Assembly: GCA_964521865.1 (NCBI GenBank)
Contig: CAZFTJ010000001.1
Span: 256,715-320,714, forward strand
Direction of reading: 5' to 3'
Source of the DNA: an uncultured Spirochaetota bacterium
GTDB lineage: Bacteria > Spirochaetota > B62-G9 > DRHN01
DNA length: 64,000 nt
Shown here one piece after another: positions 8,741 to 56,071 of the stretch. Positions within the stretch are counted from its first letter, which is position 1, and every line of letters starts with the position of its first letter. Below the pieces are notes generated by a model. It searched no databases and was not told the origin of the DNA. It was given only the letters and a program-made list of their open reading frames with translations. The position numbers were made by a program, and so were the translations under genes.

Positions 8741-8847
8741 AAGCATATTTTAAACTTGACTGTATTTTTACAGCTTTTATGATCATTATCATTATCCGAG
8801 TTAAAAAAAGATAGATCCACTTTTCGAAATGTGGAAATGATTAATTA

Positions 8848-10800: not shown

Positions 10801-11170
10801 AATTAAATTTTAATGTCATGCATAAAACACCACCTGTTATCATTATTAAACCAACCCATTGAATAGAATTCAATTTTTCTTTATAAATTATCCAGCTTGC
10901 TATGGCTAATAGGATGTAAAAGAATGAACCAGATATTGCAAAAGCTAATCCAAGTTTTAATCTTGATAATACTAGGATCCATACCATATACCCTATGCCT
11001 TGAAGGAATATTGCTGATATTGTAAAAGGAGATTGCAATACTTTTAGCAAGTATTTAATAACATCATCTGATGAATAAATAGAACTTACAGTCAGTATTC
11101 CCTTTTTAAGTATTAATTGACTTGCAATAGTGTTCATTGAAAAAATTAGAATCAATAATATGTTTTTCAT
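10793..11170 (-). CDS. Small 4-TM EamA/SMR-like membrane protein (ArnE/ArnF- or GtrA-like flippase subunit)
   Basis: 125 aa with four hydrophobic helices. The C-terminal WVGLIMITGGVLCM is typical of the EamA/SMR fold. It overlaps the previous gene's stop by 8 nt (convergent). Confidence 0.5.
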   Translation of the reverse strand: MKNILLILIFSMNTIASQLILKKGILTVSSIYSSDDVIKYLLKVLQSPFTISAIFLQGIGYMVWILVLSRLKLGLAFAISGSFFYILLAIASWIIYKEKLNSIQWVGLIMITGGVLCMTLKFNFN

Positions 11171-11179
11171 TAAATAGTC

Positions 11180-11974: not shown

Positions 11975-12554
11975 ATATTATTATTAACTCGTGGTATTTA
12001 AAGTACTTACCTATCGATTTAAGGTTTATGGGGAAATATTGTTTTTTTTGTAAGGAATAATTGTAAATATTTTTCAATCGATTCTTTATAAAAAAATCAT
12101 AATTAATAAAAATCCTGTGCGTTTTATCATGCTGAAATCCTTTTTCTCCCGGCACAATTATAATAATTCTTTGTAAATCTAAGTGATTACAGGACTGAAA
12201 CAGATTATTTAAAGTTTTAACCGGGTCATTTAAGTGTTCTAAGACATGACTCATAATTAATGTACTGTATTCGCCAGGTTTTAATTGTTTGAGCTCATAA
12301 TTATCTAATTCAGGGTTGTAATATTCTACATTTAATCCCATTTTTTTACAGTATCTAACTGTTGCTTCATTTACCTCATAACCAATTGATCCATCTGGTA
12401 ATAATGAAAGTAATTCTCCAATACCACAGCCAAAATCAATAGTTTTTCCGATTATATATTTTAGTATATTTTTTAAATAGATTTTCCGTATTTTCTTTCG
12501 AATAATACTCCTTTTTAATTGGTAGTCAGTATACTTCTGATCATATTTTAACAT
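11958..12554 (-). CDS. Class I SAM-dependent methyltransferase
   Basis: Motif I IDFGCGIGELLSLL, motif post-I GYEVNEAT and motif II/III LIMSHVLEHL. Confidence 0.75.
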   Translation of the reverse strand: MLKYDQKYTDYQLKRSIIRKKIRKIYLKNILKYIIGKTIDFGCGIGELLSLLPDGSIGYEVNEATVRYCKKMGLNVEYYNPELDNYELKQLKPGEYSTLIMSHVLEHLNDPVKTLNNLFQSCNHLDLQRIIIIVPGEKGFQHDKTHRIFINYDFFIKNRLKNIYNYSLQKKQYFPINLKSIGKYFKYHELIIIYDKKN

Positions 12555-12569
12555 TTTGATTGGAGTTAT

Positions 12570-12947
12570 TTATTTTTTACGACCATACTCTTTTATTTTT
12601 TTTAATTCATATTTTAATATTCCAATTTCTTGAACAAGGTTTTTAACATTTTCGGTAAGTTTTGAAATAACAATAGAATAGTGTATAAGTATTGAGAGAA
12701 TTGCAGTAAAGAGAAGTATAAAAGCAGCAGCGGGTGGATAACTTACCCCTAGCAATTTTGCGATTAAATCAATACCTCTTCTCCAAAAAGAAAAAAGAAT
12801 AAACAATCCACTGAAAAATAACCATAGGAGTGAATACTCTTCCTTCAACTTTTTTTTTCTTATTAATTCGACAATGAAAATAGTAATTATTACACTTCCA
12901 AAAAGTGCAAAATACTGAATTTTATTTGTGGAGTAACTTTTAAACAT
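12570..12947 (-). CDS. Small membrane protein, DUF2304-like (frequently partnered with GtrB/ArnC-type synthases)
   Basis: 125 aa with three TM helices plus a charged coiled C-terminus (LVQEIGILKYELKKIKEYGRKK). Its start overlaps the stop of the GtrB-like gene. Confidence 0.45.
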   Translation of the reverse strand: MFKSYSTNKIQYFALFGSVIITIFIVELIRKKKLKEEYSLLWLFFSGLFILFSFWRRGIDLIAKLLGVSYPPAAAFILLFTAILSILIHYSIVISKLTENVKNLVQEIGILKYELKKIKEYGRKK

Positions 12948-13671
12948 ATTCTGTAGTCCTTGTATGTTTTTTATTTTTCGGATAAGTGTATGTTATTAAT
13001 ATAGCTAAAATTACTTTAATCATATAATATAATGAATTAAATCCTTTTATAGAAGATTTTCCATTTATTCTTTTTTTCATTTCAATTGATACTTCTTTCA
13101 TTTTAAAATTGTTTTTATCCAATAAAATGATAGCTTCAGGTTCAGGATAATCTGTTGGGTAATAATTAGCAAAAAATTGAATTGCTTTCTTGTTATAAGC
13201 TCTAAAGCCAGAAGTGTTGTCTGAGATACTTTGCTTTATTAGGATTGAATTGATTAATGAAAAAATTTTAATACCTATTTTTCTTAAGAATGATGACGTA
13301 TATCCCTTTTTATTTCCACAAAATCTTGAACCAATAACAACGTCGGCCTTATTTTTAAAAATAGGTTCAATAATTTTAGATACTTCAGACGCATTGTGCT
13401 GGCCGTCACCGTCGAATTGGAAGGCGTAGTCATAATCTTTTAACACCGCATATTTAAAGCCTGTTTGAACGGCACCACCTATTCCAAGATTACATGGTAA
13501 ATTTATAACTTCAGCCTTCTCGGTACCTGCGGCAATGCTTCCGGTATCATCCTCTGAACCGTCATTTACGACAAGTATATCTATATTTGGATACTCAGCT
13601 TTTAAGGAATTTATTACATTGAGTATATTTGACTGCTCGTTATATGCTGGAATAATGGCAAGTATTTTCAT
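12940..13671 (-). CDS. Polyprenol-monophosphate sugar synthase (GtrB/ArnC/DPM1-like GT2)
   Basis: MKILAIIPAYNEQSNI…ILVVNDGSEDDT…DGDGQH (DXD-containing DPM1 family). It has no C-terminal TM extension. Confidence 0.8.
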   Translation of the reverse strand: MKILAIIPAYNEQSNILNVINSLKAEYPNIDILVVNDGSEDDTGSIAAGTEKAEVINLPCNLGIGGAVQTGFKYAVLKDYDYAFQFDGDGQHNASEVSKIIEPIFKNKADVVIGSRFCGNKKGYTSSFLRKIGIKIFSLINSILIKQSISDNTSGFRAYNKKAIQFFANYYPTDYPEPEAIILLDKNNFKMKEVSIEMKKRINGKSSIKGFNSLYYMIKVILAILITYTYPKNKKHTRTTEYV

Positions 13672-13692
13672 GTTATTTAATAATCGAACGAT

Positions 13693-14631
13693 ATGTCGAA
13701 AAATACAATAAATATTCTTATGGCAACGTTTAATGGAGAAAAATATATTGAAGAACAGGTTGAGTCAATAGTAAACCAGAGCTTCAAAAATTGGAAGCTC
13801 TTTATACGTGATGACGGATCGACGGATAATACAGTAGGAATTATCAAAAAGATTGCTTGTGTAAATCCTGGAAAAATATTTTTTGTGGATAGCTCAAAGA
13901 AGTCTCTCGGTGCAAAGGGTAATTTTGCCCAATTGCTTGAATCGACCGATGCCGAATACTTTATGTTCTGTGATCAGGATGACGTCTGGCTTAAGGATAA
14001 AATTGGATTGACATATAACAGGATGATTGAGATTGAAGAGAAAATCGGACATGAAAAACCGATCCTTATTCACACGGATTTGAAAGTTGCAGATGAGAAT
14101 CTTGCTGTTTACGCACCTTCGTTTTCTCAGTATCAAAACTTGAAACCTTTAAAAGTAAAGTCGATCAACAGGCTCCTTGTGCAGAATGTTATCACCGGTT
14201 GTACGGTAATGATCAATAACGCCTTGAAAAAAAAGGGGCTTCCGATTCCGAGAAAGGCAATAATGCATGACTGGTGGCTCGGGCTTGTCGCATCCGCTTT
14301 TGGTATTGTAGATTATATCGATGCACCCACGGTGCTTTACAGGCAGCATGGTATCAATGCAATTGGGGCAAAAAAGTGGGATTTTCGTTATATCGTATAT
14401 AGTGCACAAAGCTTAAAGGAGAAGGCAGCATCGATAAAAATGACAATCGATCAGGCGAAGAGTTTCATCGATAATTACGGTAAAACACTTGACGTTAAAT
14501 CTTATGAAATAGCAAATGTATATTCCCATCTTGATGAATATTCTTTTTTTAAAAAAAGGTTTAAGATTATTCGGTACAATCTGTATAAAATCGGGTTTCT
14601 GAGGAACATCGGGATGTTTATCAGGATGTAA
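13693..14631 (+). CDS. Glycosyltransferase family 2 (WbbL/rhamnosyltransferase-like)
   Basis: ILMATFNGEKYIEEQVESIVNQSFKNWKLFIRDDGSTDNT and a CDQDD DXD motif. Confidence 0.75.
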   Translation: MSKNTINILMATFNGEKYIEEQVESIVNQSFKNWKLFIRDDGSTDNTVGIIKKIACVNPGKIFFVDSSKKSLGAKGNFAQLLESTDAEYFMFCDQDDVWLKDKIGLTYNRMIEIEEKIGHEKPILIHTDLKVADENLAVYAPSFSQYQNLKPLKVKSINRLLVQNVITGCTVMINNALKKKGLPIPRKAIMHDWWLGLVASAFGIVDYIDAPTVLYRQHGINAIGAKKWDFRYIVYSAQSLKEKAASIKMTIDQAKSFIDNYGKTLDVKSYEIANVYSHLDEYSFFKKRFKIIRYNLYKIGFLRNIGMFIRM

Positions 14632-45478: not shown

Positions 45479-45514
45479 AAGGCTCCTTTTAACGATACAT
45501 CGTAAAAGGAGCCT
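45479..45514 (+). terminator. Perfect 12-bp inverted repeat hairpin after lpd (aggctcctttta…taaaaggagcct)
   Basis: Seen directly in the sequence, but no clear downstream T-tract. It is probably an operon-end terminator and marks the core/island boundary. Confidence 0.4.
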
Positions 45515-45615
45515 ATTCCCATTGTACAGAAATCTATTAAAAATCTCCTGCATCAGGATCAGGTCCGCTCAATTCTACGCTGCCAATATCTTAACCTCCC
45601 TATAAATCAATTAAT

Positions 45616-45644
45616 TTGACTTTTATAAATTTTCGGATTATAAA
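45616..45644 (+). promoter_or_regulatory. Sigma70-like promoter TTGACT-N17-TATAAA upstream of the SNF2 helicase gene
   Basis: ttgact (45616-45621), a 17-nt spacer, then tataaa (45639-45644). It is followed by an AAAGAGG RBS and the ATG at 45689. Confidence 0.45.
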
Positions 45645-45688
45645 AAATGCACAAACATGCGGGGAAAAAGTTAAAAAAAGAGGCCGCA

Positions 45689-48373
45689 ATGAAAGAAAAA
45701 ACGGAAGAAAAAACGATAACTTCTTTAAAAGACATACTATCGTATCTTACCTACAGACAGGCCTGCAAGCTGCTTGGCCCTGAAGGGGAGAGGCTTATAC
45801 GGAAAGGCGGGAAATGGGATATCGATCTTTACGAACAGGTAACACTGGATAATGAAAAGTTTATCCTCGATCTAAATGAGGCGGTCGTTACTATTGAATT
45901 GAACCCTATGAATACAAAGAAGCTTCGCTTCTTATGCAGCGCCTGCTCTTCTATTTGCGAACATATCGGAGCTGCGTTTTCGCTTATTCTTGAGGAAAAA
46001 CTGTCATTAGGCCTTTCAGCTCCACCGCCTGAACTGACGCCCATGGAAAACTTGAGTGAAGAACAATTAATCAATCGGGCGCTAAATGATAGAAAAGAAA
46101 AAGCGAAAAAAGAAAAAATGTCCCTCGCATCGATGAACGAGGCCCAGTTATGGACAGATTACACTGTCACAAGTTATTCATCCGGAAAAACCTACAGGGT
46201 GGCCCTCAGAGGATGGGAACCGGGAGAATCCTACTGCACCTGTCCGGACTTTAAAATAAACACCCTCGGCACCTGCAAACATATAATATATACACAGGAA
46301 TGTGTCGAAAGGCAGTTTCCAGAAAAAATAAGAGAAAAGCCATACAAACAGAATAACATTGCCTTACACCTGCGGTATGGAAAGAATGTGGAATTACGTC
46401 TAATTGTGCCCGAGGGGTTAGACGCGGAGGCGGAGGAGATTGTGAACCCTTTAAGAAACCGCGTGATCTCTGATATCCCCGATTTACTGACGCGTATCAG
46501 TAAATTAGAACAGTCAGGACATGAGGTGATAATCTATCCTGATACGGAGGAATATATAAATAATCTTCTTTTTCATCGAAAGATTCAAAAGAAGGTTGAT
46601 GAAATAAGAAGCAATGCGAGGCATCACCCTCTGCGGAAAAACCTGCTTAAAATAGAGCTTCTTCCCTATCAACTGGACGGCATAGCTTTTGCCGTAGGCG
46701 CAGGAAGAGCTATTATTGCAGACGACATGGGTCTGGGAAAAACCATACAGGGTATAGGAATTGCTGAACTGTTCAATATTGAGGTTGATATTTCCAAAGT
46801 ATTGGTTATATGTCCGGCATCTGTAAAATCTCAATGGCGTCTTGAGATAAAACGCTGTTCTAACAGAAGCTGTCAGTTGATAATAGGCGCGGCAGAAGAA
46901 AGAATCCGTCAATACGATAACAAATGTTTTTTTACGATCTGTAATTATGAGCAGGTGCTTCGTGATATTAAAACAATAGAGACAATTTCATGGGACCTTA
47001 TCATTCTGGACGAGGGGCAGAGAATAAAAAACTGGGAAGCAAAAACCACACAGGTTGTGAAATCCTTGAGATCGCCATTTGCCCTGGTGCTTACAGGCAC
47101 CCCTCTTGAAAACAGGCTGGACGAACTGTATTCGGTAATTCAATTTATCGATAACAGCAGGCTGGGACCGTCCTTTCGTTTTTTTAACAGGCACAGAATT
47201 ACTAATGAACAAGGAAGGGTGTTGGGTTATCAAAATCTCGATGAGCTTCGGGAAAAACTTAAACCCATCCTCCTTCGGAGAACCCGCAGTATGGTACTGA
47301 AGGATCTGCCTCCAAGAACAACCGAAATCTTACGAATACCGCCCACAGAGGAGCAGGCGGATATTCATAACAGCAATAAGAAAATAATTTCCACCATTGT
47401 TTCAAAAAAATACCTTACTGAAATGGACATTTTGAGGCTTCAAAAAGCACTTTTACTCTGCAGAATGGCTGCAGACAGCACCTATCTGGTAGATAAAACT
47501 CCACCCGGGTATTCCAGCAAGCTGAAGGAACTGGAACTGCTTCTTGAACAGCTCAATTTTGAAGAAGACAGGAAAATAATCCTATTTTCAGAATGGACAA
47601 CCATGCTGAATCTGATAGAACCGCTCATTGAAAGGCAAAGTATAAACTACATCCGCCTGGATGGGTCTGTTCCGCAGAAGAAAAGACAGGGTTTGATGCA
47701 TCAGTTTCAGCATGACCCTGGTTGCAGGGTGTTTATTACTACCAATGCCGGTTCAACGGGGCTTAACCTTCAGGCTGCCAACACAGTCATCAATGTTGAC
47801 CTTCCATGGAACCCTGCAGTGCTCGAGCAGAGGATATCACGCGCTCACCGCATGGGGCAGAAAAGGCCTGTACAGGTATATCTTCTGGTAACAGAAGATA
47901 CTCTTGAAGAAAGCCTGCTTGATACCCTCTCTGCAAAGCATAAATTGGCCATGGCCTCTCTTGATGCAGCCTCAGAGGTTAACGAGGTATCCTTTACCGG
48001 CAGTATCGAAGAATTAAAACGCCGCATGGAGGTGCTTTTAGGAACAAAACCTGATGCCGCTATTGATGAAAGCCGGAAAAAAGAGCTGGAAAGGGAGGCT
48101 GCAAAACATGCACGAAGAGAAAACGTTGCAATTGCCGGAGGCCAGCTTATGAGTGCTGCATTTTCTTTTATAGGAGAACTGCTTGGTACCAATAGGGCAG
48201 TGAATCAGGGTACTGAAGATGTTGACAGGTTTAAAAATCTTCTTTATGAGTGTATGGAGAAAAATGAAGACGGCAGTTTAAAGATGACGGTTAACTTCCC
48301 TGATGCCTCCGTACTTGATAATCTGGCAGGCGTTCTGAGCACAATAACTGCGAATGAAAACGGTTCTCAGTAA
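45689..48373 (+). CDS. SNF2-family helicase with N-terminal SWIM zinc finger (defense-island helicase)
   Basis: SWIM CTCPDFKINTLGTCKHI; motif I DDMGLGKTIQ; motif II ILDEGQRIKN; motif III LTGTPLENRL; helicase-C motifs TTNAGSTGLNL and QRISRAHRMGQ. The track ORF begins at 45647, but the RBS-supported ATG is 45689. Confidence 0.85.
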   Translation: MKEKTEEKTITSLKDILSYLTYRQACKLLGPEGERLIRKGGKWDIDLYEQVTLDNEKFILDLNEAVVTIELNPMNTKKLRFLCSACSSICEHIGAAFSLILEEKLSLGLSAPPPELTPMENLSEEQLINRALNDRKEKAKKEKMSLASMNEAQLWTDYTVTSYSSGKTYRVALRGWEPGESYCTCPDFKINTLGTCKHIIYTQECVERQFPEKIREKPYKQNNIALHLRYGKNVELRLIVPEGLDAEAEEIVNPLRNRVISDIPDLLTRISKLEQSGHEVIIYPDTEEYINNLLFHRKIQKKVDEIRSNARHHPLRKNLLKIELLPYQLDGIAFAVGAGRAIIADDMGLGKTIQGIGIAELFNIEVDISKVLVICPASVKSQWRLEIKRCSNRSCQLIIGAAEERIRQYDNKCFFTICNYEQVLRDIKTIETISWDLIILDEGQRIKNWEAKTTQVVKSLRSPFALVLTGTPLENRLDELYSVIQFIDNSRLGPSFRFFNRHRITNEQGRVLGYQNLDELREKLKPILLRRTRSMVLKDLPPRTTEILRIPPTEEQADIHNSNKKIISTIVSKKYLTEMDILRLQKALLLCRMAADSTYLVDKTPPGYSSKLKELELLLEQLNFEEDRKIILFSEWTTMLNLIEPLIERQSINYIRLDGSVPQKKRQGLMHQFQHDPGCRVFITTNAGSTGLNLQAANTVINVDLPWNPAVLEQRISRAHRMGQKRPVQVYLLVTEDTLEESLLDTLSAKHKLAMASLDAASEVNEVSFTGSIEELKRRMEVLLGTKPDAAIDESRKKELEREAAKHARRENVAIAGGQLMSAAFSFIGELLGTNRAVNQGTEDVDRFKNLLYECMEKNEDGSLKMTVNFPDASVLDNLAGVLSTITANENGSQ

Positions 48374-48630
48374 AACCATATGATTTTGCATCAATTTCAC
48401 GTTTAGCAGAGCCAAGGCTCTCGATCGCTTTTTCCCACCAGTAATGAGTTACTTCTGGATGCTTTTCATCTTTATTCATAGCAGTATGCCATGCATGGTA
48501 ATTTCTTCATATATTGACAAAACCGAAAAAACCCCAGTATTCAATGCATCTTCATCTATAGCAAGAGTATTCAAGTTTAATACTCTCGATCGTCTTCATT
48601 TTCAAAATTCCTCTATGCTGAAATTTGTTA

Positions 48631-51600
48631 TCATAGTTTATTCCATTCAGCTCGAAAAATACAGCTCTCATATACACCGCCTTTCCCATGTAAAAGGCCC
48701 TTTGCAAAGAGAGAAAGTCCGTGATCTGTGGTAAGTATTAAACGCCGCTTCAACTGTCTGCAGGCTTCGAGCAGTTGAGGGAGGTCTGTTTTAAGAATAT
48801 GGTTCACAATTCTAACCATCTCAGATAATCGCATTCCCTTTCTATGTGCACCTTGGTCTATTGCTGACAGCCGAATCACTACCGGTATATCAGGCTTAAT
48901 GGGCAGAACATGATCCAGAAGAGCGTGTTCTTCATTTCCTTTCAGATTGTGATACACAACGTTTCTTGCTGAAAACTCTTCCACCGGGTCGTTATGAAAA
49001 CCAAAGAGCCTGGCTATTGAATCTACGGTATCAGGTTTTGCTTCAAGTCTTGCCCATGATTGCGGAACCTCATCTGTAAAATACTCAATGCTTTTGATCG
49101 ATTCCATCCATACATCCGGTGCCGCACCGTCAATAATGACAACCACAGGACAATCATCCAGAATAATAATAGGGACTTCAGATAATTTTGAAAGCCATTC
49201 TTCACCCAGATCAGACACCTCCTGCACTGCCTTTTCAGCAATATACTGTAATTCTCCGGTGGTCCAGGCATCATTCATGAGCTCTTCTGCGAAAACCCTC
49301 ATGCTCAGACGTGCCGGGTACTGCTGATCCATTCTCTCTGCAATTGTCTTTAGTATTCGAAGATGGCGCCTGATGTCATCTGCCGTATCATGATCCGTAT
49401 GAGAGGAGTGAATATCATCTTCACCAGGCAACACGGCTCCTGTCAGGATTCTTTCTGAAAGCAGACTCCAGGCCATCCTTATAGCCCCTGTATGGTATCT
49501 TTCCTGAGTAATAAACCGTAAAAGTGATTCAGTATCAATTAATTGCAACGTCTCTTTCAGCCTGATAGAAGGGAACCTTTTTTCAAGTCTATTTTCGATC
49601 TCTACGATTTCCTCCTTTTGTATGGGTTCCTGTTGAAATTCTCGTGAAAAAAGTCCCGCATGAAGCAGGGACCACCAGTCAAGTGAATCTAAAACAGAAC
49701 CGGGAGCAACCCTTTGCTCAAGATCTTCATCAATAGCCAGCAGTGTCTTTTCGTCAGTTATCGAAGCCCATTCATCGACAATCTTTCGAATCTGCGATTG
49801 TGCAAGCCTTCTTCCTGCCAGTCTGGATATAAGCTCACTTAATTTTTTATGCTGTATATGGACTTTTCCTGTCAGTGCCCGGGACAATTGCAAGGTTGTC
49901 TGTTCATCAAAAACAGCAAGTAAATGCGCCGGCGTTATCGTGTCTTCCTGTACAATTTTGCTGATCTGTTTCAGGCGTTGCGACATATCCGGATCAGCAT
50001 CCTTGACTGCGTACGCATGTGCAGTGATTGACTCCAGCACCTCTGGTTTTTTTATTATATCCACATATTCCATAAAAAACCTGTTAATAGCCTCTTCGGG
50101 CTCTATTTTTTCTCCTGGTTCAGGCACAGCTCCCACATCTCCGGGTTGGTATCCGCAGGTACATACAGGCGAGCGGATTAACTCTTCTGAAATTTTTCTT
50201 CTGCATTGTTCTTTTCCGGGTGCTTTTAAATCCCTTATAAACTGCTCCAGCCCCGGGGGTCTGTCAAGGGCCTCAATAGCGGCAAGACGTTCTAAAGTAC
50301 CCGCAGCCCTTTCGGCAGATTTTGATAATGAAGGCTTTTGAAAGGACCTGTAATACGCAGCATGCTTTTTTGAGTAAAAGGCAAAATAATACTCTCTAAA
50401 ATGTGAAAACACCGAGTTCAAGTGTTCACCCTCATCCCCGATGATAAATATTTCCGGTTTTTCAACAAGGGAAATTACCGTTTTTCTTAGCTCCGCAAGC
50501 TCTCTGTCCTGTTGAGTTGCTTTTTTTACAGCAGAATGGTGGATATAGTGGTGAATGAATACAAACTGTTCGGCGTTGTGCAAAAGAAAAGCCCTGAGTT
50601 TTTTTAAAAACTGAATATCTTCATTTTTCAGTCCTGTCCCTCGCCATGTTTTCAGGAACCGTTCCAGACCCTCTTTCGCTGAATGGGAAATTTTTATCTC
50701 ATTTACCAGATTGGTCAGCGAATTTATTTTTTGATCAATCGCTGAAAGATTAAATACCTTAAATGCTGAAAATTCTGCCACATGTGAAAGCTGTGATTGT
50801 ATTGCTACAAGCATTGTTGATGCTGTTTCTTTAAACTTTATTACGGCTTTCCATGCCTCACGCTGCTGGTGTAATCCAAAAGAATCCCAGGTTGACGAGG
50901 GAGCTAAAAAATCACATTCCGTCTTCAGTGTTTCCCTGTCATTTTGATTTATAAGCTCTCCCAGGGCAACCTCATCCGCTTTTTCTACTGATATAAAGTG
51001 CAGAAAATCAACGGGTACGGTGCGTCCGTTTTTCAGCAGTGTAATCAGTCCGCCGCAGGCCAGTGCAGAGAGAAGAAAGAGAAATGTATCTTCAGGAAGT
51101 CCGTATGCGCCTGTTTGAAGCGCATGTGCAATCTCTTTTATCGAAGCAGGGCCTGCCGGCTTGAGGAGACCGGAAAAGAAAGACAAAAACGGATGTCCTG
51201 TCATGTCGGGTGAAAAAACATACGATCCCCCTTTCAGCCGGACAAGTCCGATAGGTACTGCCAGGCCGTCTATTGCCTCACCCAGCCCCTTTGCCTGAGC
51301 TTCCCGAAGCAGTATACTCCCCGGAGTGACCAATTCATCGAGAAGCCGCTGGTATAAACGGGGTGAGGGATGAATCCTTCTGGGCGCAATTTCTCTGAAT
51401 TTCGGGTACCGATCATCCAGGATGACTTCCCCTGCAGCCTCTAAAAGACGGTCGAAACGCTTGAGCTGGCGCACTGCTGCTCCAACCTGGATCTGCGGGT
51501 CGGTAAAATTCCCTGAATAAAATGCCTCCATAGCAGCCTGGTGAACAGCCGGCCTGATGCGTTCCAATCTCTCTTTTACGGGCTGTATTAGAGGAGCATC

Positions 51601-53646
51601 AGCAGGGTTCGAGGGCTTCAGCTCCGAGGCAACAAGCCTTGTTGCTAAAAATTCTTTAAAAAGCGATGTCTTTTCTTTTGGAAAAGTAATCTGCCATACT
51701 GCCGTATAATCAGCACTGTATTCCCTTTCCCCGAAGGTAATGATGACTGCAAAATCGTACTTCGCACAGGATATCTCATGTGATAAACGATGTACGTCAT
51801 CATCGGAGAGAAACCGGATAAAAACCCTGCGGATGCTGAAGTGCCAGGTTATCTGACGTACTACTCCCTTTTCCCATAAGGAAATACCCGGCCATACTTC
51901 CGATTCCGGTATATCTAAGAAAGGCTCAGATAAAAGCCTTGAATCATCGTCTTCCAGATCACGGGCAGTACGAGAGATTCGCTCTTTTAAGATTTTCCCC
52001 GGATCATCCTGTGTAATGACCGTATAAACGGTATCCAGGGGGTTACCGGATTCAGAGGGCTGCTTTATCAGAAACCGGCTCACTTCAACGATTGGATCGA
52101 GCAGGGCCTCGGCTATAAACCGGATATTGAATCCCGGCATTTGAAAATCCAGTGAACAGGCTGCTATTTCAGCCAGGCGACCTACAGGAGGAGTATCCGC
52201 CGTGGGATGAATTTTATAGAGGACGAGTATCCTTACGAGTCTGCGGGCAAGATTACGGTCATCAGAATCCTCTATCACATCGTCGATGACCTTATCAAGA
52301 TGGGGAATGACATGGCGTGGATATACATTGAATGCCGAAAACTCGGCAAGTCTCAATGCAAAATGATCGTAAATGCTGTCGGGTGCCAGTACCTCTGTTG
52401 CAGGCTGTTGAAGAATTCCTCGGATATTCCGCCTTTTATCCCCTGCTATGCGTGAGTAAATAAAATCCACTATACCTCGATGCTCTGAAAAGAGATCACC
52501 CAGGCCGTCAAGAAGAGCAATGGTTGCCGGATGAACAGGATAGGTCTGTCTGAAGCTATCGTAGGTCCAGGAGAATGTCGAAAATTGCCTCTTGTAAGCT
52601 TCATAAATGCGATATATTTCTTCATCGGCTCCCGGTTTACGGTGTACAAGGCGGTGAGATATGAGTGAACGGATATGTACAGTTGAAAGACTGAGTTTTA
52701 CGGGGAATCTGTCTTTAATTTTCCGGAATGTTACCTGCGAGATATCCCCGGTACTTTCAATGCTCTCCTGAACCGCGGCAATAATCCATAGCGGCTCACC
52801 TGCAGTAAGCTCACCCAGCAGTTGAAGTGTACGGGCATCTTCATTTAATTCCTGTGCGGTGCGTTTAGAACGGAAAAACTCGGATAGCTCATCAATAAGC
52901 AAAAAAAGCCCGTCAAACCCTGCATTTTTTACTGCCGATAGTGTTCGTTTAAAAGTTTCGTGTCTTTCTTCAACAAGTGCCTCAGGGATTTTAAGCCCCG
53001 TGCTTTTTATTAAACGCATGCCGTATATGTACGCTTCATGAGGATATTCATCTATCCATTGCTTCAGGCCATCCGTATCGAGGTCTTCTGCCTGCAGACC
53101 GTCGGTCTTTTTCCGGTCGGCTGAAACGCCCAGCAGCTTGATAAAAGATTCGGCGGTTTCAGGTTCCTCTATAAGGTTTTTTAAATGATTGAGAAAAGAA
53201 GAAACAGGAGTTAATACTGCCTCAATGCCCTTCGATTTCAGGTGGTTTTCCACTGCTTCAACAACAATCTGTTCTAAAGGAGTTTCAGCCCTGTAATTCA
53301 CCAGTGAAATTGCCACAGGTAAAAACCGTTTACCGGATTCCATGACACGCTTGAGCCCGCCGTGGCGACCGGTAAGTATCTCTGCTCCTGCAATTCCTGC
53401 AAGCCAAGCATACAACGCCGCTAAAAAATGAGACTTGCCCGAGCCGAAATCACCCTGAAGAAAATACCCCTGCCCCTGGTGACCGAGGAGTGACTCTGAG
53501 ATAACAGTAAAGTGAGAAAAAACCTCTGTTGTAAATACAAAACTACCGGCAATCTTGTTGGACTCCGTCTGTCCCTCTTTAAGGCGTATAACGGTTTTTA
53601 CCGGCGGGATTTCTACTATATCACCGATACACAGTGATTCGTTCAT
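48631..53646 (-). CDS. Giant fusion protein: N-terminal BrxC/PglY-like (or KAP-like) P-loop ATPase, central helical region, C-terminal PglZ-type alkaline-phosphatase-superfamily domain
   Basis: Walker A LQGDFGSGKSHFLAAL, Walker B FLLIDELSEF and the sensor IIAAVQ. The C-terminal ~200 aa carry PglZ/alkaline-phosphatase metal-ligand motifs VVVIIDGAAPD, DQGAH, LILTTDHG and HGKGGVYE. 1671 aa; lower GC than the core genome. Confidence 0.7.
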   Translation of the reverse strand: MNESLCIGDIVEIPPVKTVIRLKEGQTESNKIAGSFVFTTEVFSHFTVISESLLGHQGQGYFLQGDFGSGKSHFLAALYAWLAGIAGAEILTGRHGGLKRVMESGKRFLPVAISLVNYRAETPLEQIVVEAVENHLKSKGIEAVLTPVSSFLNHLKNLIEEPETAESFIKLLGVSADRKKTDGLQAEDLDTDGLKQWIDEYPHEAYIYGMRLIKSTGLKIPEALVEERHETFKRTLSAVKNAGFDGLFLLIDELSEFFRSKRTAQELNEDARTLQLLGELTAGEPLWIIAAVQESIESTGDISQVTFRKIKDRFPVKLSLSTVHIRSLISHRLVHRKPGADEEIYRIYEAYKRQFSTFSWTYDSFRQTYPVHPATIALLDGLGDLFSEHRGIVDFIYSRIAGDKRRNIRGILQQPATEVLAPDSIYDHFALRLAEFSAFNVYPRHVIPHLDKVIDDVIEDSDDRNLARRLVRILVLYKIHPTADTPPVGRLAEIAACSLDFQMPGFNIRFIAEALLDPIVEVSRFLIKQPSESGNPLDTVYTVITQDDPGKILKERISRTARDLEDDDSRLLSEPFLDIPESEVWPGISLWEKGVVRQITWHFSIRRVFIRFLSDDDVHRLSHEISCAKYDFAVIITFGEREYSADYTAVWQITFPKEKTSLFKEFLATRLVASELKPSNPADAPLIQPVKERLERIRPAVHQAAMEAFYSGNFTDPQIQVGAAVRQLKRFDRLLEAAGEVILDDRYPKFREIAPRRIHPSPRLYQRLLDELVTPGSILLREAQAKGLGEAIDGLAVPIGLVRLKGGSYVFSPDMTGHPFLSFFSGLLKPAGPASIKEIAHALQTGAYGLPEDTFLFLLSALACGGLITLLKNGRTVPVDFLHFISVEKADEVALGELINQNDRETLKTECDFLAPSSTWDSFGLHQQREAWKAVIKFKETASTMLVAIQSQLSHVAEFSAFKVFNLSAIDQKINSLTNLVNEIKISHSAKEGLERFLKTWRGTGLKNEDIQFLKKLRAFLLHNAEQFVFIHHYIHHSAVKKATQQDRELAELRKTVISLVEKPEIFIIGDEGEHLNSVFSHFREYYFAFYSKKHAAYYRSFQKPSLSKSAERAAGTLERLAAIEALDRPPGLEQFIRDLKAPGKEQCRRKISEELIRSPVCTCGYQPGDVGAVPEPGEKIEPEEAINRFFMEYVDIIKKPEVLESITAHAYAVKDADPDMSQRLKQISKIVQEDTITPAHLLAVFDEQTTLQLSRALTGKVHIQHKKLSELISRLAGRRLAQSQIRKIVDEWASITDEKTLLAIDEDLEQRVAPGSVLDSLDWWSLLHAGLFSREFQQEPIQKEEIVEIENRLEKRFPSIRLKETLQLIDTESLLRFITQERYHTGAIRMAWSLLSERILTGAVLPGEDDIHSSHTDHDTADDIRRHLRILKTIAERMDQQYPARLSMRVFAEELMNDAWTTGELQYIAEKAVQEVSDLGEEWLSKLSEVPIIILDDCPVVVIIDGAAPDVWMESIKSIEYFTDEVPQSWARLEAKPDTVDSIARLFGFHNDPVEEFSARNVVYHNLKGNEEHALLDHVLPIKPDIPVVIRLSAIDQGAHRKGMRLSEMVRIVNHILKTDLPQLLEACRQLKRRLILTTDHGLSLFAKGLLHGKGGVYESCIFRAEWNKL

Positions 53647-53718
53647 GGATTTTTATCCAGCATATTTTTCACATGGTAAACCAGGGAGAAAATCAGGATG
53701 CCTTACTGTTTGGTTTTA

Positions 53719-54681
53719 TTAATTCTTGTCCAGCATATTTTTCAGCCTCTGTATTCGTCCATACAATGATTTTTCATCCGGGAATAAGCCTGAAAGCTCC
53801 CGGTAAAAATTAATAGCCCGCTCGAGCTCTCCGATTCGAGCACATGCAGCACCGTAACCGGAATGCAGATACATATCTTTTGGGTCGACCCTTAAAAGCT
53901 CTTCCATGATCGGGACGGCCTTTTTTTCCTGACCGGTCTTGGCAAGTACAAAGGCCTGTTTCCGCTGAATCCGGTGCTGTGAGCCTTTCGACTCTATTTT
54001 TTCATACTGTTTTATGGCAAGTTCCGACCTGCCCGACCTTCGACAAAGCGAGGCATAAATCTCACCATAAATCGAAGGCAGCGATGGGATTTTCGCCAGT
54101 TTTTCCATGCGTTTGAGCACAGGATAAATACCATAACGCCGGATTTCCAGTTCTGTCAGCTCCCAGAGCGCTGAACGATGATGCGGCTTCAGTTCCAGCC
54201 ATCTCTGACAGGCCTCAAATGCCCTGCTGTATTCTCCGAGCCCTGAAAGAGCTTTTACCCTGTACCGAATACTGTCCCTTTCAGGCATATCCCAGCCTGC
54301 AAGATGAGACAAAATGTCCTGCCAGTTTTTCAGGTTTATGTGGCATTCCAGTATGCCTTTTTGTGACCGTAACTTCAGCTTTTGATTATTCAGACTTTCT
54401 TTATAATACTGTAATGCCTCTTTATACCTGTGTAAACCAAAGAGCGCATCTGCTGCCGATAGTACGGCGTAAGGATTGGTGGAATCTAAGGTCAATGCCT
54501 GAGTTGCAATAGAAAAACCCGATTCATATTTTTCAGCCCGTATCAATGCATTTGCCTGATGGGTAAGCCAGAAGACATTCTGCTTTCTGTTATTTAAATA
54601 TTTCCTTTCAGCATAATGGGCAGCTTCTAAATATTTCTCCTGCCGCATCAATTCACAGAACTCATTGTATTCTTTTGACAT
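53719..54681 (-). CDS. TPR-repeat protein (co-directional, 72 bp upstream of the ATPase-PglZ gene)
   Basis: Multiple 34-aa TPR-like units (…YAVLSAADALFGLHRYKEALQYYKESL…). About 38% GC, so it is part of the low-GC island. Confidence 0.65.
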   Translation of the reverse strand: MSKEYNEFCELMRQEKYLEAAHYAERKYLNNRKQNVFWLTHQANALIRAEKYESGFSIATQALTLDSTNPYAVLSAADALFGLHRYKEALQYYKESLNNQKLKLRSQKGILECHINLKNWQDILSHLAGWDMPERDSIRYRVKALSGLGEYSRAFEACQRWLELKPHHRSALWELTELEIRRYGIYPVLKRMEKLAKIPSLPSIYGEIYASLCRRSGRSELAIKQYEKIESKGSQHRIQRKQAFVLAKTGQEKKAVPIMEELLRVDPKDMYLHSGYGAACARIGELERAINFYRELSGLFPDEKSLYGRIQRLKNMLDKN

Positions 54682-54954
54682 ATGGTTTTATCTATTTAAA
54701 TTCTGGTTTTTTGTACCTTTCATTAAAAAGTGAGCCTGTACAATGTTAAAATTGCCTGTCATTGCATTCTATAGGTAAAAACCATTAGGCAGGTGTCGAT
54801 TTGAACCTTTTAAGTTTGGAAGTTCACTTGCCTATATATTCTACGTATATACGAGAGAGTTTACAGATGAAAAATCAATAATCCTTGATCAATTCTCAAC
54901 AATGATTCTTCAATTATATCAGTTACTACGCATAAAGGCAAATCCCGTGAGGGG

Positions 54955-55164
54955 TTATATTTTTTCAATATATTCCGGTATTGATTGCGCAGTGTCTGGA
55001 AAATTACTTAATATTTTCTGATCCATTGTAACAAGCCGTACGCTCAAGTCTCGAGCCAAGTTGACGAACTCGCAATCATATGCAGAACAACTGCTGTTCC
55101 GGACGAGCTTTAATATTTGAATCGTGCTTATTTCAAATTCATTATTTTTTAATAAATCTTCCAC
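54955..55164 (-). pseudogene. Truncated VapC/PIN toxin remnant (C-terminal half only)
   Basis: SAYDCEFVNLARDLSVRLVTMDQKIL matches the VapC C-terminal consensus (DA..v.lA..l...L.T.D..l). There is no N-terminal catalytic Asp region and it begins with GTG. It lies in an AT-rich flank at the island boundary. Confidence 0.5.
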
Positions 55165-55183
55165 AATAGGTGATTTTCCCCCG

Positions 55184-56071
55184 CTAAACCGTATGCTCTT
55201 CGTTCGCGATCTCGTAGCCGCGGTCCCCTTCTCGAATAAAGCCCTCCCGCACGAGGCCGGCGATCGCCTCTTTTATAAGGCAGTCGTCCCTTTCGGTTTT
55301 CACGGCTATCTCCCGGTCCGAGAGTCCGGGCTCCTTGAGCAGGGTCCTCAAAACCATGCCCCGCACCTGTCTCCTGGAACCTTCAAAAGGCGGCTGTCTC
55401 GTGTAATGCCTGCTCCTGCTGTTCATCGACCCGAAGCGCCTCTTCAGCTCGGCGCCGTAGTCCATCATTGCGTAATACCAGGTGCGGAGGTTTTTCCGGT
55501 CGAGCGTCCGTTCGACAAGAAGCCGGATGCACCTGTCGTGTATATTGTCGCGGCCCGAAAAGAAGAAGTGGATAAAAAGGGACCTGATATTGGTTTCGAT
55601 AAACACGGCGGGAACATCGAATGCAAACGCCAGAACGGCCGATGCCGTTGCATGGCCGATGCCGGGGAGCGAGAGCAGGTTTTTATAGCTGTCGGGAATC
55701 CTGCCGGCGAATCTATCGACAACGACGCACGCCGATTTTTTCAGATACAGGCACCTCCTGTTGTAACCCAGCCCCTGCCATTTCAGGAGCACCTGGTGGA
55801 GCGGCGCTTTGGAAAGAGCGCGTATGCCTGGAAAGGCCTCGATGAAATCATTGTACTTTTTCAGAACACGTTCGACCTGAGTCTGCTGGAGCATGATTTC
55901 AGAAACAAGTATACGGTAGGGGTCTTTCGTTCTGCGCCACGGCAAATCGCGCCCGCGTCCCTGATAAAAGCTGTGGATAAGGTCTTGAAACCTGGATACG
56001 TCGTTATCCGTTAGATGCTCGGGGTCTGGAAAGGAGCCTGCCTGTTCTGTCTGACCGTCTTTGCCGTTCAT
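55184..56071 (-). CDS. HhH-GPD superfamily DNA glycosylase (EndoIII/MutY-like, no Fe-S cluster cysteines) with C-terminal winged-helix-like extension
   Basis: RILVSEIMLQQTQVERV, the HhH LPGIGHATASAV and the catalytic D region. It lacks the C-x6-C-x2-C-x5-C motif. Confidence 0.7.
   Translation of the reverse strand: MNGKDGQTEQAGSFPDPEHLTDNDVSRFQDLIHSFYQGRGRDLPWRRTKDPYRILVSEIMLQQTQVERVLKKYNDFIEAFPGIRALSKAPLHQVLLKWQGLGYNRRCLYLKKSACVVVDRFAGRIPDSYKNLLSLPGIGHATASAVLAFAFDVPAVFIETNIRSLFIHFFFSGRDNIHDRCIRLLVERTLDRKNLRTWYYAMMDYGAELKRRFGSMNSRSRHYTRQPPFEGSRRQVRGMVLRTLLKEPGLSDREIAVKTERDDCLIKEAIAGLVREGFIREGDRGYEIANEEHTV

What the first reader, a model, noticed from the sequence alone, without database searches (positions are those of the whole stretch)
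48631..53646. Single-polypeptide fusion of BREX core components (BrxC-like ATPase N-terminus, PglZ C-terminus)
The first ~450 aa carry Walker A (LQGDFGSGKSHFLAAL), Walker B (FLLIDELSEF) and a sensor-like IIAAVQ. A long helical region follows, typical of BrxC/PglY proteins. The last ~200 aa contain the alkaline-phosphatase-superfamily metal-ligand constellation characteristic of PglZ (VVVIIDGAAPD … DQGAH … LILTTDHG … HGKGGVYE). In known BREX types BrxC and PglZ are separate proteins, so the fusion implies an obligate 1:1 physical coupling of ATPase and phosphatase activities. The G-x-F-G-S-G-K-S P-loop also resembles KAP NTPases, and an alternative annotation as a KAP-like NTPase fused to PglZ would be equally novel.
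Basis: partly seen in the sequence, partly recalled or inferred. Interest (0 to 1): 0.8.

Follow-up and report, generated by a model that had tools for sequence, protein, structure and literature searches.

The report
BrxC ATPase fused to PglZ-like phosphodiesterase
A real, intact 1671-residue gene joins a BREX-type BrxC ATPase to a small PglZ-like metal-dependent phosphodiesterase/nuclease domain; the fusion is conserved with a TPR partner gene in several bacterial phyla, lacks the BREX methyltransferase, and was not found described in the papers searched.

Summary
The ORF at 48631-53646 (minus strand, 1671 aa) is real and uninterrupted. The same ~1650-aa architecture occurs in more than 400 protein clusters from at least seven phyla, so it is not a frameshift or assembly artefact.

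- **N-terminus.** The first ~550 aa are a BrxC-type ORC/Cdc6 AAA+ ATPase. Walker A, Walker B and the arginine finger are invariant.
- **Middle.** The secondary-structure order follows the published BrxC body.
- **C-terminus.** The last ~320 aa fold as a PglZ-type alkaline-phosphatase/NPP domain. BREX PglZ and PorX are the top structural matches, and all seven NPP-type catalytic residues are present. Sequence evidence for PglZ is weak: no Pfam PglZ hit, and profile-profile probability is 19-26%.

The domain is a minimal, divergent PglZ found only in this fusion.

This is not a BREX system. No methyltransferase was found in the window or in the three other loci with domain calls, and no BrxA/B/L-sized gene recurs across the 61 loci. 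The conserved unit is a ~320-aa TPR gene directly upstream of the fusion (51 of 61 loci). An SNF2/SWIM helicase (present here) or a RecD2-like helicase joins it in some lineages. In this genome, SNF2, fusion and TPR form one low-GC island.

Most likely it is a BREX-derived, methylation-independent DNA-targeting module, probably anti-mobile-element defence. That function is inferred, not shown.

The parts
48631..53646 (-). Whole gene: 1671-aa BrxC-like ATPase fused to a PglZ-like domain (databases name it 'DUF6079 family protein')
   Evidence: Uninterrupted ORF. The identical protein is on record, and 416 or more homologues share the same architecture.
52447..53646 (-). aa 1-400: ORC/Cdc6-clade AAA+ ATPase core plus lid, BrxC type. 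Walker A is at 53431-53460, Walker B at 52879-52908, and the arginine-finger equivalent R313 lies within 52702-52716.
   Evidence: Pfam DUF6079/BrxC-PglY_N E=3.9e-30. PADLOC BrxC E=1.7e-24. PDB BrxC chains 9zn5/9zll/9zdx E=6e-13 to 2e-11. hhalign against pEFER BrxC gives 97% probability over aa 18-380. Foldseek on the 9zll/9zdx BrxC N-domain gives E=2.5e-12 and TM 0.62, with the superposition extending to about aa 550. K71, D252, E253 and R313 are invariant; R313 aligns with the BrxC 'GRF' arginine, described as the arginine finger R330 in PMC13326643.
50947..52389 (-). aa ~420-900: helix/beta-hairpin (wHTH-like) units and an alpha+beta domain, in the order published for the BrxC DNA-binding body. 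Boundaries are approximate.
   Evidence: AF2 model with pLDDT 85; DSSP element order compared with the BrxC domain description in PMC12839542. Distant-clade homologue L059 matches the DUF6079 profile 171-1108/1238 in one stretch and aligns to window aa 6-1296.
49600..50946 (-). aa ~901-1349: long helical/coiled-coil region with an invariant Cys cluster (C1148, C1162, C1164; nt 50155-50205) in an unstructured apex
   Evidence: Long helices H925-1122 and a low-confidence loop at 1142-1182. Invariant C1148/C1162/C1164. By analogy with the BrxC coiled coil and its apical subdomain (PMC12839542). This is an inference.
48634..49599 (-). aa ~1350-1671: PglZ-like region, made of a helical linker plus the phosphatase core
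48634..49161 (-). aa 1496-1671: minimal alkaline-phosphatase/NPP-fold catalytic core. Catalytic set: D1506 (also D1511), T1540 (predicted nucleophile), D1597, H1601, D1641, H1642, H1653, plus E1660.
   Evidence: pLDDT above 90. Residues are invariant or nearly invariant across two clades. Foldseek top 18 hits are PorX or PglZ, E=4e-7 to 5e-5. The collinear hhalign pairing with BREX-1 PglZ matches D104, T139, D218 and D262/H263. The mapping to the seven Xanthomonas NPP ligands is from my own knowledge of that enzyme. Exhaustive phmmer finds this domain only at the C-terminus of this protein family.
53719..54681 (-). Conserved partner gene: 320-aa all-TPR protein directly upstream on the same strand
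   Evidence: Pfam TPR families only. A homologue at 41-52% identity lies directly upstream of, or overlapping, the fusion gene in 51 of 61 loci and in loci from three phyla with called genes. Mean column identity is 54%, with invariant Trp, Tyr and Cys residues.
45647..48373 (+). Accessory SNF2-family helicase with an N-terminal SWIM zinc finger (CTCPDF...CKH), convergent with the fusion gene
   Evidence: Pfam SNF2-rel_dom E=9e-45, Helicase_C and a weak SWIM hit. The SWIM motif is visible in the translation. An SNF2 homologue neighbours the module in 8 of 61 loci from Spirochaetota, Desulfobacterota (L015) and Verrucomicrobiota (L045), usually in the order SNF2-TPR-fusion. It lies inside the same low-GC island.
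45500..55200 (.). Low-GC island (GC 0.35-0.48, one window at 0.525, against about 0.55 in the flanks) holding exactly SNF2, the fusion gene, TPR and an AT-rich upstream region
   Evidence: Composition profiles. The flanks are housekeeping genes: 2-oxoacid dehydrogenase E1/E2/E3 on one side, an HhH-GPD glycosylase and an OpuA-type transporter on the other. No tRNA genes or flanking repeats were found.
53642..53744 (-). 73-bp duplication at the TPR/fusion gene junction (copies at 53642-53671 and 53715-53744)
   Evidence: the repeat finder family D2, 83% identity. The sequence shows a relic copy of the TPR 3' end whose TGA overlaps the fusion gene's ATG (ATGA), which is the arrangement seen in other loci.

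Best explanation
**What it is.** The gene encodes a natural single-chain version of the BREX BrxC-PglZ core. It forms a conserved two-gene module with an upstream TPR protein. In this genome an SNF2/SWIM helicase appears to have been acquired with it.

**Proposed mechanism.**
- *Shown by homology and structure prediction:* the N-terminal ORC/Cdc6-type AAA+ domain has intact Walker A, Walker B and arginine-finger residues. The protein ends in a minimal PglZ-type two-metal phosphodiesterase/nuclease domain with a complete catalytic set and a threonine nucleophile.
- *Inferred from BrxC biochemistry in PMC13326643:* the AAA+ domain binds ATP and self-associates through shared nucleotide sites, and this controls DNA binding by the wHTH, alpha+beta and coiled-coil body.
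- *Inferred:* the covalent link replaces the BrxB bridge that recruits PglZ to BrxC in canonical BREX. ATP-dependent assembly on target DNA would then directly position or license the nuclease.
- *Inferred:* the TPR partner acts as an adaptor, regulator or trigger sensor.
- *Inferred:* the SNF2 or RecD2-like helicases add translocation or unwinding in some lineages.

There is no methyltransferase, so self/non-self discrimination cannot be epigenetic as it is in BREX. The most likely biological role is defence against mobile genetic elements.
For: **Fusion is real and ancient.**
- 416 or more homologues share the architecture, almost all listed ones 1600-1720 aa.
- 56 genomic loci from Desulfobacterota, Spirochaetota, Fibrobacterota, Chitinivibrionales, Kiritimatiellota, Verrucomicrobiota, Planctomycetota and others.
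- A second clade at 27% identity has the same architecture.

**BrxC homology.**

**PglZ-type C-terminus.**
- Foldseek top 18 hits are all PorX or PglZ.
- The catalytic residues are invariant.
- Five of 30 family C-termini hit Pfam PglZ, best E=1.8e-5. Distant-clade member L061 hits PADLOC PglZ at 9e-6.
- The hhalign alignment is collinear.

**Precedents in BREX.**
- BrxC, BrxB and PglZ form an ATP-dependent core complex, and PglZ residues 1-98 bind BrxB (PMC13326643).
- PglZ is reported as a metal-dependent nuclease (PMC12205998 title; PMC12839542).
- The fusion retains only the PglZ linker and core. It has no separate PglZ N-terminal (BrxB-binding) part, and no BrxB-like gene recurs next to it.

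**Partners.** TPR in 51 of 61 loci, RecD2-like helicase in 13, SNF2 in 8, across phyla.

**Horizontal acquisition.** A sharp low-GC island, and 42-50% identity between homologues from different phyla.
Against: - No function has been tested.
- No PADLOC system model covers the module, and the TPR gene has no defence-family hit.
- Neighbouring genes are mostly housekeeping rather than defence islands.
- Nothing was found on viral contigs.
- Conservation is fairly even along the protein, with no hypervariable 'sensor' domain of the kind described for BrxC and PglZ.
- Sequence-level support for PglZ, as opposed to generic NPP or alkaline phosphatase, is weak. The window protein has no Pfam PglZ hit, hhalign probability is 19-26%, and the PDB profile search gives E of 0.1 or worse.
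- The roughly 70-residue segment between the DHG and HGG motifs of BREX-1 PglZ is absent.
- With no methyltransferase, the way self DNA is spared is unknown.
Confidence: 0.55

Rival explanations
1. Same protein anatomy, but a housekeeping role in DNA maintenance or repair rather than defence. The BrxC-like ATPase loads on chromosomal DNA structures and the PglZ-like domain processes DNA ends or nicks, working with the RecD2-like or SNF2 helicases.
For: - In 13 Spirochaetota loci the gene is followed directly by, and often overlaps, a RecD2-type helicase.
- Flanking genes are housekeeping.
- Conservation is even, with no hypervariable domain.
- The family is absent from viral contigs.
Against: - Distribution is patchy across distant phyla at a uniform 42-50% identity.
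- The low-GC island in this genome points to horizontal transfer.
- The helicase partners are not universal: SNF2 in 8 and RecD2-like in 13 of 61 loci.
- In the literature consulted, BrxC and PglZ are described only in conflict systems, with PorX as the one exception for the PglZ domain.
Confidence: 0.25
2. A nucleotide-signal phosphodiesterase machine. As in PorX, the PglZ-like domain would hydrolyse cyclic or linear oligonucleotides rather than DNA, with the ATPase and TPR parts acting as a regulated scaffold.
For: - PorX is among the closest structural matches, and its PglZ domain cleaves cyclic and linear oligonucleotides (PMC12839542).
- The DxxxH motif here (D1597/H1601) resembles the NPP-type motif (aligned to NPP enzymes; H214 equivalence from my own knowledge) more than the DxxxD of BREX-1 PglZ type A.
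Against: - No cyclase, sensor kinase or response-regulator domain is conserved in the module.
- The rest of the protein follows the BrxC DNA-binding body.
- The recurrent partners are DNA helicases.
Confidence: 0.12
3. A pseudo-fusion: two genes (brxC-like and pglZ-like) joined by a sequencing, assembly or frameshift error, or by a recent accidental fusion in this genome only.
For: None found.
Against: - The identical protein comes from two sources.
- Hundreds of homologues share the architecture, in two clades only 27% identical.
- In an exhaustive search of 1.84 billion representatives the catalytic domain is always C-terminal, and every short hit is a collinear fragment of the long protein.
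Confidence: 0.01
4. The N-terminus is a KAP-family P-loop NTPase rather than a BrxC-type AAA+ ATPase.
Against: - No KAP_NTPase Pfam hit at E of 0.01 or better.
- The best HMM, profile and structural matches are BrxC, followed by ORC/Cdc6, Cdc6/Orc1 and other AAA+ proteins.
Confidence: 0.02

Closest known systems
BREX core complex BrxC-BrxB-PglZ (Type 1 BREX; Acinetobacter, E. fergusonii, Salmonella)
   Same: - The ATPase is homologous: AAA+ ORC/Cdc6 clade, with matching Walker A, Walker B and arginine finger.
- The domain order after the ATPase follows the BrxC body.
- The C-terminal region corresponds to the PglZ helical linker plus phosphatase core, with the same metal-ligand and threonine constellation.
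- In BREX the two proteins physically associate in an ATP-dependent way.
   Different: - One polypeptide instead of three proteins.
- No BrxB, and no PglZ N-terminal BrxB-binding domain, HTH units or C-terminal beta-sandwich.
- No PglX methyltransferase, BrxA or BrxL.
- A TPR partner instead.
- The catalytic domain is much smaller, lacking about 70 residues between DHG and HGG, and has DxxxH instead of DxxxD.
- NCBIfam BrxC and PglY scores are far below their cut-offs: 60 against 400 and 31 against 1700 bits.
Type-3 BREX-Related (BR) systems of Rakesh & Krishnan 2026 (PMC12839542)
   Same: They combine a BrxC-like AAA+ ATPase, a Swi2/Snf2 helicase and a minimal PglZ domain with no extra fused domains. 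The window module likewise has an ATPase, a minimal PglZ and an SNF2 helicase.
   Different: - BR systems use a DUF499 ATPase. The ATPase here is the DUF6079 (BrxC proper) type.
- Their PglZ is a separate gene.
- They have an N6-adenine methyltransferase and an inactive STAND protein, neither of which is present here.
- No TPR partner is described for them.
PorX (PorXY two-component system, type IX secretion)
   Different: PorX has an N-terminal receiver domain and works in signalling. It has no AAA+ ATPase and no DNA-binding body. Sequence identity is only 10-14%.
HerA/FtsK-centred BREX-related system (PMC12839542, section 36)
   Same: It pairs a DUF6079-type BrxC homologue with a reduced PglZ outside canonical BREX.
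   Different: It is a seven-gene system with PglZ and DUF6079 as separate genes, plus STAND, DUF4007, HerA/FtsK, GNAT and TGT. None of these occurs in the module here.

Membership tests
BrxC/PglY (Pfam PF19557 DUF6079 = BrxC-PglY_N) | Significant match to the family profile above the curated cut-off | tested here: met
   PF19557 scores 104.6 bits against a cut-off of 23, E=3.9e-30. The best matched stretch covers only aa 219-400. PADLOC BrxC-PglY models reach E=1.7e-24.
BrxC/PglY (NCBIfam equivalogs BREX_BrxC NF033441, PglY NF047891) | Full-length score above the equivalog cut-off | tested here: not met
   60.3 bits against a cut-off of 400, and 31.5 bits against 1700. The protein is a BrxC homologue but not an orthologue of a BREX-1 or BREX-2 component.
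BrxC/PglY | ORC/Cdc6-clade AAA+ fold with Walker A, Walker B and arginine finger | tested here: met
   Foldseek ranks the BrxC N-domain first (E=2.5e-12, TM 0.62), then ORC/Cdc6. K71, D252, E253 and R313 are invariant. R313 aligns to the BrxC arginine finger.
BrxC/PglY | Post-ATPase body: wHTH, alpha+beta domain, one or more wHTH, then a coiled coil with an apical subdomain (PMC12839542) | tested here: inconclusive
   The secondary-structure order of the AF2 model fits (one search compared). Distant-clade homologue L059 matches DUF6079 profile positions 171-1108 of 1238.
PglZ domain (Pfam PF08665) | Match to the Pfam PglZ profile above the gathering score (25 bits) | tested here: not met
   The window protein has no PglZ hit even at E up to 10. 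Five of 30 family C-termini hit below threshold, best E=1.8e-5. Distant-clade L061 scores 23.9 bits. The family consensus hits only Metalloenzyme at E=6e-4 and PADLOC PglZ at E=0.009.
PglZ domain | Profile-profile alignment to canonical BREX PglZ | tested here: inconclusive
   hhalign of the family C-terminus (A3) against 29 BREX-1 PglZ type A proteins (A4) gives 19-26% probability and P of 7e-4 to 1e-3. The alignment is collinear over 176 columns, with D1506, T1540, D1597 and D1641/H1642 paired to the invariant PglZ residues.
PglZ domain | Conserved active-site residues for metal coordination plus a Thr nucleophile (synapomorphy i in PMC12839542) | tested here: met
   D1506, T1540, D1597, H1601, D1641, H1642 and H1653 are invariant or nearly invariant. 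The HG..E motif has the same H-to-E spacing of 7 as in PglZ.
PglZ domain | alpha/beta/alpha scaffold with a central beta-sheet, closest structurally to PglZ-domain proteins (synapomorphy ii) | tested here: met
PglZ domain | [quoted passage not shown] | tested here: inconclusive
   Only 10 residues separate DHG from HG here, against about 70 in BREX-1 PglZ. The model shows just a short hairpin (strands at 423-425 and 428-430 in C-terminal-model numbering, aa 1645-1652). The cap is probably reduced or absent, but no superposition could be inspected.
BREX system (any type) | Co-located modification gene (PglX/BrxX methyltransferase, or PAPS reductase in type 4) and the other core genes (BrxA/BrxB-like, BrxL, PglW and so on) | tested here: not met
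   No methyltransferase or other BREX gene was found in the window among the ORFs scanned, or next to the module in the called-gene loci. The only methyltransferase seen is a small N6_N4_Mtase about 1 kb downstream in L002, and it does not recur. Across the 61 loci, the only recurring neighbours are TPR, RecD2-like and SNF2 genes.
KAP P-loop NTPase | Match to the KAP_NTPase profile or fold | tested here: not met
   No KAP hit in Pfam at E of 0.01 or better. The structural neighbours are BrxC and ORC/Cdc6 AAA+ proteins.

The most novel reading that the evidence does not exclude
TPR plus the BrxC-PglZ fusion, optionally with an SNF2 or RecD2 helicase, is a self-contained, methylation-independent immune system derived from BREX. 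On this reading the TPR protein senses an invader cue and licenses ATP-dependent assembly of the fusion on foreign DNA. The tethered minimal PglZ nuclease then acts on that DNA. This would be a naturally minimised 'restriction half' of BREX, in which ATPase control of PglZ can be studied without PglX, BrxA, BrxB or BrxL.
Probability: 0.4. Interest if true: 0.75.

Novelty: new variant of a known kind. Interest (0 to 1): 0.62.

Why it matters
How BREX stops phage replication is still unresolved. Recent work places BrxC, BrxB and PglZ in one ATP-regulated core complex and identifies PglZ as a metal-dependent nuclease.

A widespread natural protein that hard-wires BrxC to a stripped-down PglZ offers two things:
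- independent evolutionary support that the ATPase-PglZ coupling is the functional heart of these systems;
- a two-gene model for testing how ATP binding and DNA engagement by BrxC gate the PglZ active site, without a methyltransferase, BrxA, BrxB or BrxL.

It also marks a family of several hundred proteins, currently labelled only 'DUF6079 family protein', whose C-terminal catalytic domain is missed by Pfam. If it proves to be a defence system, it would add a methylation-independent branch to the BREX superfamily and give the conserved TPR partner a role.

Tried and rejected
1. **Direct Pfam, PADLOC and NCBIfam scans for PglZ.** No PglZ hit on the window protein or its C-terminal pieces. The only signal was a marginal Metalloenzyme hit at E=0.03.
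2. **Profile search of solved structures.** The whole-family profile (A1) and the C-terminal profile (A3) gave no significant PglZ or PorX hit by sequence. NPP and PorX appeared at E of 0.1-0.5.
3. **hhalign against a single pEFER PglZ sequence.** Only the DHG motif aligned, at 11% probability.
4. **Consensus-sequence scans.** Metalloenzyme E=6e-4 and PADLOC PglZ E=0.009.
5. **hhalign -glob.** The result was meaningless.
6. **Stand-alone versions of the catalytic domain.** All short hits proved to be collinear fragments of the long protein.
7. **Viral contig scan.** Nothing found.
8. **Island boundaries.** No tRNA genes or att-like repeats.
9. **Promoter and terminator scan.** Counts were not above the shuffled expectation. 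The best candidate promoter, at 54913-54941 on the minus strand, is only a consensus match.
10. **HhH-GPD glycosylase upstream of TPR.** Rejected as a module member. It lies outside the low-GC island and has no homologue in other loci.
11. **KAP NTPase and pseudo-fusion readings.** Both rejected (see the rival explanations).
12. **Literature searches.** Searches for DUF6079, for PglZ + BrxC + fusion, for PglZ + tetratricopeptide, and for PglZ + SWIM + SNF2 found no description of this architecture.
Full report
**1. Observation.**

The window has one uninterrupted ORF at 48631-53646 on the minus strand, encoding 1671 aa with an ATG start. The exact protein is on record from an NCBI record and from an independent Logan assembly of SRR14802574.

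A search of 5.8 billion protein clusters returned 416 homologues at E of 1e-5 or better. Nearly all of the 120 listed are 1600-1720 aa, and most cover the whole query at 43-88% identity. Where they are named at all, they are 'DUF6079 family protein' or 'hypothetical'.

**2. N-terminal part.**

- Pfam gives only PF19557 (DUF6079, renamed BrxC-PglY_N in newer releases; E=3.9e-30).
- PADLOC BrxC-PglY models hit down to E=1.7e-24.
- NCBIfam BREX_BrxC and PglY hit far below their equivalog cut-offs: 60 against 400 bits and 31 against 1700 bits.
- A family profile finds the solved BrxC chains 9zn5, 9zll and 9zdx at E=6e-13 to 2e-11 over profile positions 31-335.
- hhalign against BrxC of plasmid pEFER gives 97% probability over aa 18-380.
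- An AlphaFold2 model of aa 1-1200 (pLDDT 85) superposes best on the BrxC N-domain (Foldseek E=2.5e-12, TM 0.62 normalised to the target). ORC/Cdc6 proteins come next.
- K71, D252/E253 and R313 are invariant in 30 homologues. R313 aligns with the BrxC arginine that PMC13326643 identifies as the arginine finger.

No KAP NTPase signal was found.

After the ATPase, the model shows helix-plus-hairpin units, an alpha+beta domain, further helix-hairpin units and then long helices. That is the order published for BrxC: wHTH, alpha+beta, one or more wHTH, then a coiled coil with an apical subdomain (PMC12839542). I could not confirm this domain by domain.

Indirect support comes from a distant homologue, L059. 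It aligns to window aa 6-1296 and matches the DUF6079 profile from position 171 to 1108 of 1238 in one stretch.

**3. C-terminal part.**

*Sequence evidence is weak.*
- The window protein has no Pfam PglZ hit, only a marginal Metalloenzyme hit at E=0.03.
- The family profile gives non-significant PDB hits to NPP enzymes and PorX that align the DxxxH and DHG motifs.
- Five of 30 family C-termini hit Pfam PglZ (best E=1.8e-5), and seven hit Metalloenzyme.
- The consensus sequence hits Metalloenzyme at 6e-4 and PADLOC PglZ at 0.009.

*Structural evidence is clear.*
- The AlphaFold2 model of aa 1223-1671 has pLDDT 85.8, and above 90 across the alpha/beta domain.
- The 18 best Foldseek PDB matches are all PglZ-domain proteins: PorX, and the BREX PglZ chain 9zn5_B, at E=4e-7 to 5e-5. 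Generic alkaline phosphatases, EptA/MCR enzymes and NPPs start at E=1e-3.

The match to BREX PglZ therefore appears to include the helical linker as well as the core.

hhalign gives 19-26% probability and P of 7e-4 to 1e-3. With a permissive threshold the alignment is collinear over 176 columns and pairs four sites:
- D1506 with PglZ D104
- T1540 with the invariant T139 of the PSYT motif
- D1597 with D218
- D1641/H1642 with D262/H263

The terminal HGG...E motif aligns separately, because BREX PglZ has about 70 extra residues between DHG and HGG.

*Catalytic set.* D1506, T1540, D1597, H1601, D1641, H1642 and H1653 are invariant or nearly so in both clades of the family. From my own knowledge of the Xanthomonas NPP active site, these correspond to its seven ligands.

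*A second clade.* L058-L061 come from Clostridia, another Firmicutes MAG, Deferribacteres and Desantisbacteria. They share only 27% identity with the window protein but have the same architecture. Two of them, L060 and L061, hit Pfam PglZ just under threshold (L061: 23.9 bits against 25), and L061 hits PADLOC PglZ at 9e-6.

*Exclusivity.* An exhaustive phmmer search of 1.84 billion representatives with the catalytic domain found only 89 proteins, always with the domain at the extreme C-terminus. Every short hit aligns collinearly into the interior of the long protein, so these are truncated gene calls.

*Conclusion.* The C-terminus is a minimal, divergent PglZ-type domain that exists only in this fusion. 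Its membership of the alkaline-phosphatase superfamily is secure. Its assignment to the PglZ clade rests on structure plus weak sequence bridges.

**4. Context.**

In 61 loci (the window's own contig plus public genomes and metagenomes), a ~320-aa all-TPR gene lies directly upstream of the fusion gene in 51. It often overlaps the fusion gene's start. This TPR protein is unusually well conserved, at 54% mean column identity.

The other recurrent neighbours are:
- a RecD2-like helicase directly downstream in 13 loci, mostly Spirochaetota;
- an SNF2 helicase in 8 loci, from Spirochaetota, Desulfobacterota and Verrucomicrobiota.

The typical order is SNF2, TPR, fusion, RecD2.

The window has the SNF2 gene (45647-48373, plus strand, with a classical SWIM CxC...CxH motif), convergent with the fusion gene. 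It has no RecD2-like gene.

GC content drops sharply from about 0.55 to 0.39-0.48 between about 45.5 and 55.2 kb. That interval holds exactly SNF2, the fusion gene, TPR and an AT-rich upstream region. The HhH-GPD glycosylase gene next door lies outside it, so the three genes look co-acquired.

No methyltransferase, BrxA, BrxB or BrxL was found among the window ORFs scanned or in the called-gene loci examined. No tRNA genes or att-like repeats mark the island. No viral contig carries a relative.

**5. Mechanism.**

*Shown by homology and structure prediction:* an intact BrxC-type AAA+ ATPase, and a catalytically complete PglZ-type two-metal centre with a threonine nucleophile.

*Known from the literature:*
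- BrxC binds DNA and self-associates under ATP control.
- Its AAA+ domain binds BrxB:PglZ in an ATP-dependent way.
- PglZ residues 1-98 mediate BrxB binding (PMC13326643).
- BREX-1 PglZ is a metal-dependent nuclease, and PorX PglZ is an oligonucleotide phosphodiesterase (PMC12205998, PMC12839542).

*Inferred:*
- The covalent link replaces BrxB bridging. The fusion keeps only the PglZ linker and core, and no BrxB-like gene recurs beside it.
- ATP-dependent assembly of the BrxC body on DNA positions or licenses the nuclease.
- TPR acts as an adaptor, regulator or sensor.
- The helicases are lineage-specific accessories.
- With no methyltransferase, discrimination cannot be epigenetic.

I put about 0.9 on the anatomical claim (a genuine BrxC-PglZ-like fusion with a TPR partner) and about 0.55 on the full statement including a defence role.

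*Rivals:*
- A housekeeping DNA-maintenance factor (0.25). It is supported by the RecD2 operons, housekeeping flanks and even conservation.
- A PorX-like nucleotide phosphodiesterase (0.12).
- A KAP NTPase or a pseudo-fusion (each 0.02 or less).

**6. Comparison and novelty.**

The closest known entities are:
- the BREX BrxC-BrxB-PglZ core;
- the Type-3 'BREX-Related' systems, which combine a DUF499 ATPase, an SNF2 helicase, a stand-alone minimal PglZ, a methyltransferase and an inactive STAND protein;
- the HerA/FtsK-centred system, which has separate DUF6079 and reduced PglZ genes (PMC12839542);
- PorX.

None is a single-chain BrxC-PglZ, and none has a TPR partner. Full-text searches found no description of this architecture.

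It fails the membership test for a BREX system because it has no modification gene. It also fails the curated thresholds for BrxC equivalogs and for Pfam PglZ, while clearly being homologous to both. I rate it a new variant of a known kind.

It is of real interest to BREX and defence-system specialists as a natural minimal ATPase-PglZ unit, but its function is untested. Interest: 0.62.

Noticed in passing
window 53642-53671 and 53715-53744 (minus-strand genes): A ~73-bp duplication spans the TPR stop and the fusion gene start. The copy next to the fusion gene's ATG preserves a relic TPR 3' end ('...KNMLDKNP*') whose TGA overlaps the ATG (ATGA), the coupled arrangement seen in other loci. The duplication seems to have uncoupled two genes that were ancestrally translationally coupled, leaving a 72-nt spacer.
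   Followed up: partly
window 50155-50205 (aa 1148-1164 of the fusion protein): An invariant Cys cluster (C1148, C1162, C1164; CRRK...13 residues...CTC) sits in a poorly structured stretch between long helices of the coiled-coil region. It may be a zinc-hook-like or hinge-like apex, analogous to the apical subdomain described for the BrxC coiled coil.
   Followed up: no
window 45500-55200: A sharply bounded low-GC island (GC 0.35-0.48, one window at 0.525, against about 0.55 in the flanks) contains exactly SNF2, the fusion gene and TPR. No tRNA, integrase or flanking direct repeats were found, so how it was acquired is unknown.
   Followed up: yes
window 1-14000: A very low-GC region (0.25-0.33) encodes a polysaccharide-type cluster with GT1/GT4 and GT2 glycosyltransferases; a sugar transferase and a DegT aminotransferase lie further downstream. 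Two large ORFs (86-2464, 792 aa; 8848-10800, 650 aa) have no Pfam hit at E of 1e-5 or better.
   Followed up: partly
L058-L061 (Clostridia, Firmicutes, Deferribacteres, Desantisbacteria MAGs): A second, deeply diverged clade shares the BrxC-PglZ architecture. Three members are 1705-1770 aa (L058 runs off its contig end) and all are about 27% identical to the window protein. Two of its C-termini (L060, L061) hit Pfam PglZ directly, just below threshold. A TPR partner was detected only weakly, in L058.
   Followed up: partly
L003, L009, L018, L019, L022, L023, L025-L027, L029, L044, L047 (mostly Spirochaetota); a fragmentary hit also in L054: A RecD2-type helicase gene (OB_YrrC, HHH_RecD2, AAA_30, UvrD_C_2 domains) lies directly downstream of the fusion gene and often overlaps it. 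The window has no RecD2-like gene.
   Followed up: partly
window 55184-56071 (minus strand): An HhH-GPD family DNA glycosylase gene lies just upstream of the TPR gene on the same strand. It is outside the low-GC island and is not conserved next to the module in other loci.
   Followed up: yes
window aa 161-200 of the fusion protein (nt ~53047-53166): This is the only strongly variable, indel-rich segment of the protein (42% gaps, pLDDT below 50 at aa 175-186). It is an insert within the AAA+ domain between the Walker A and Walker B motifs.
   Followed up: no
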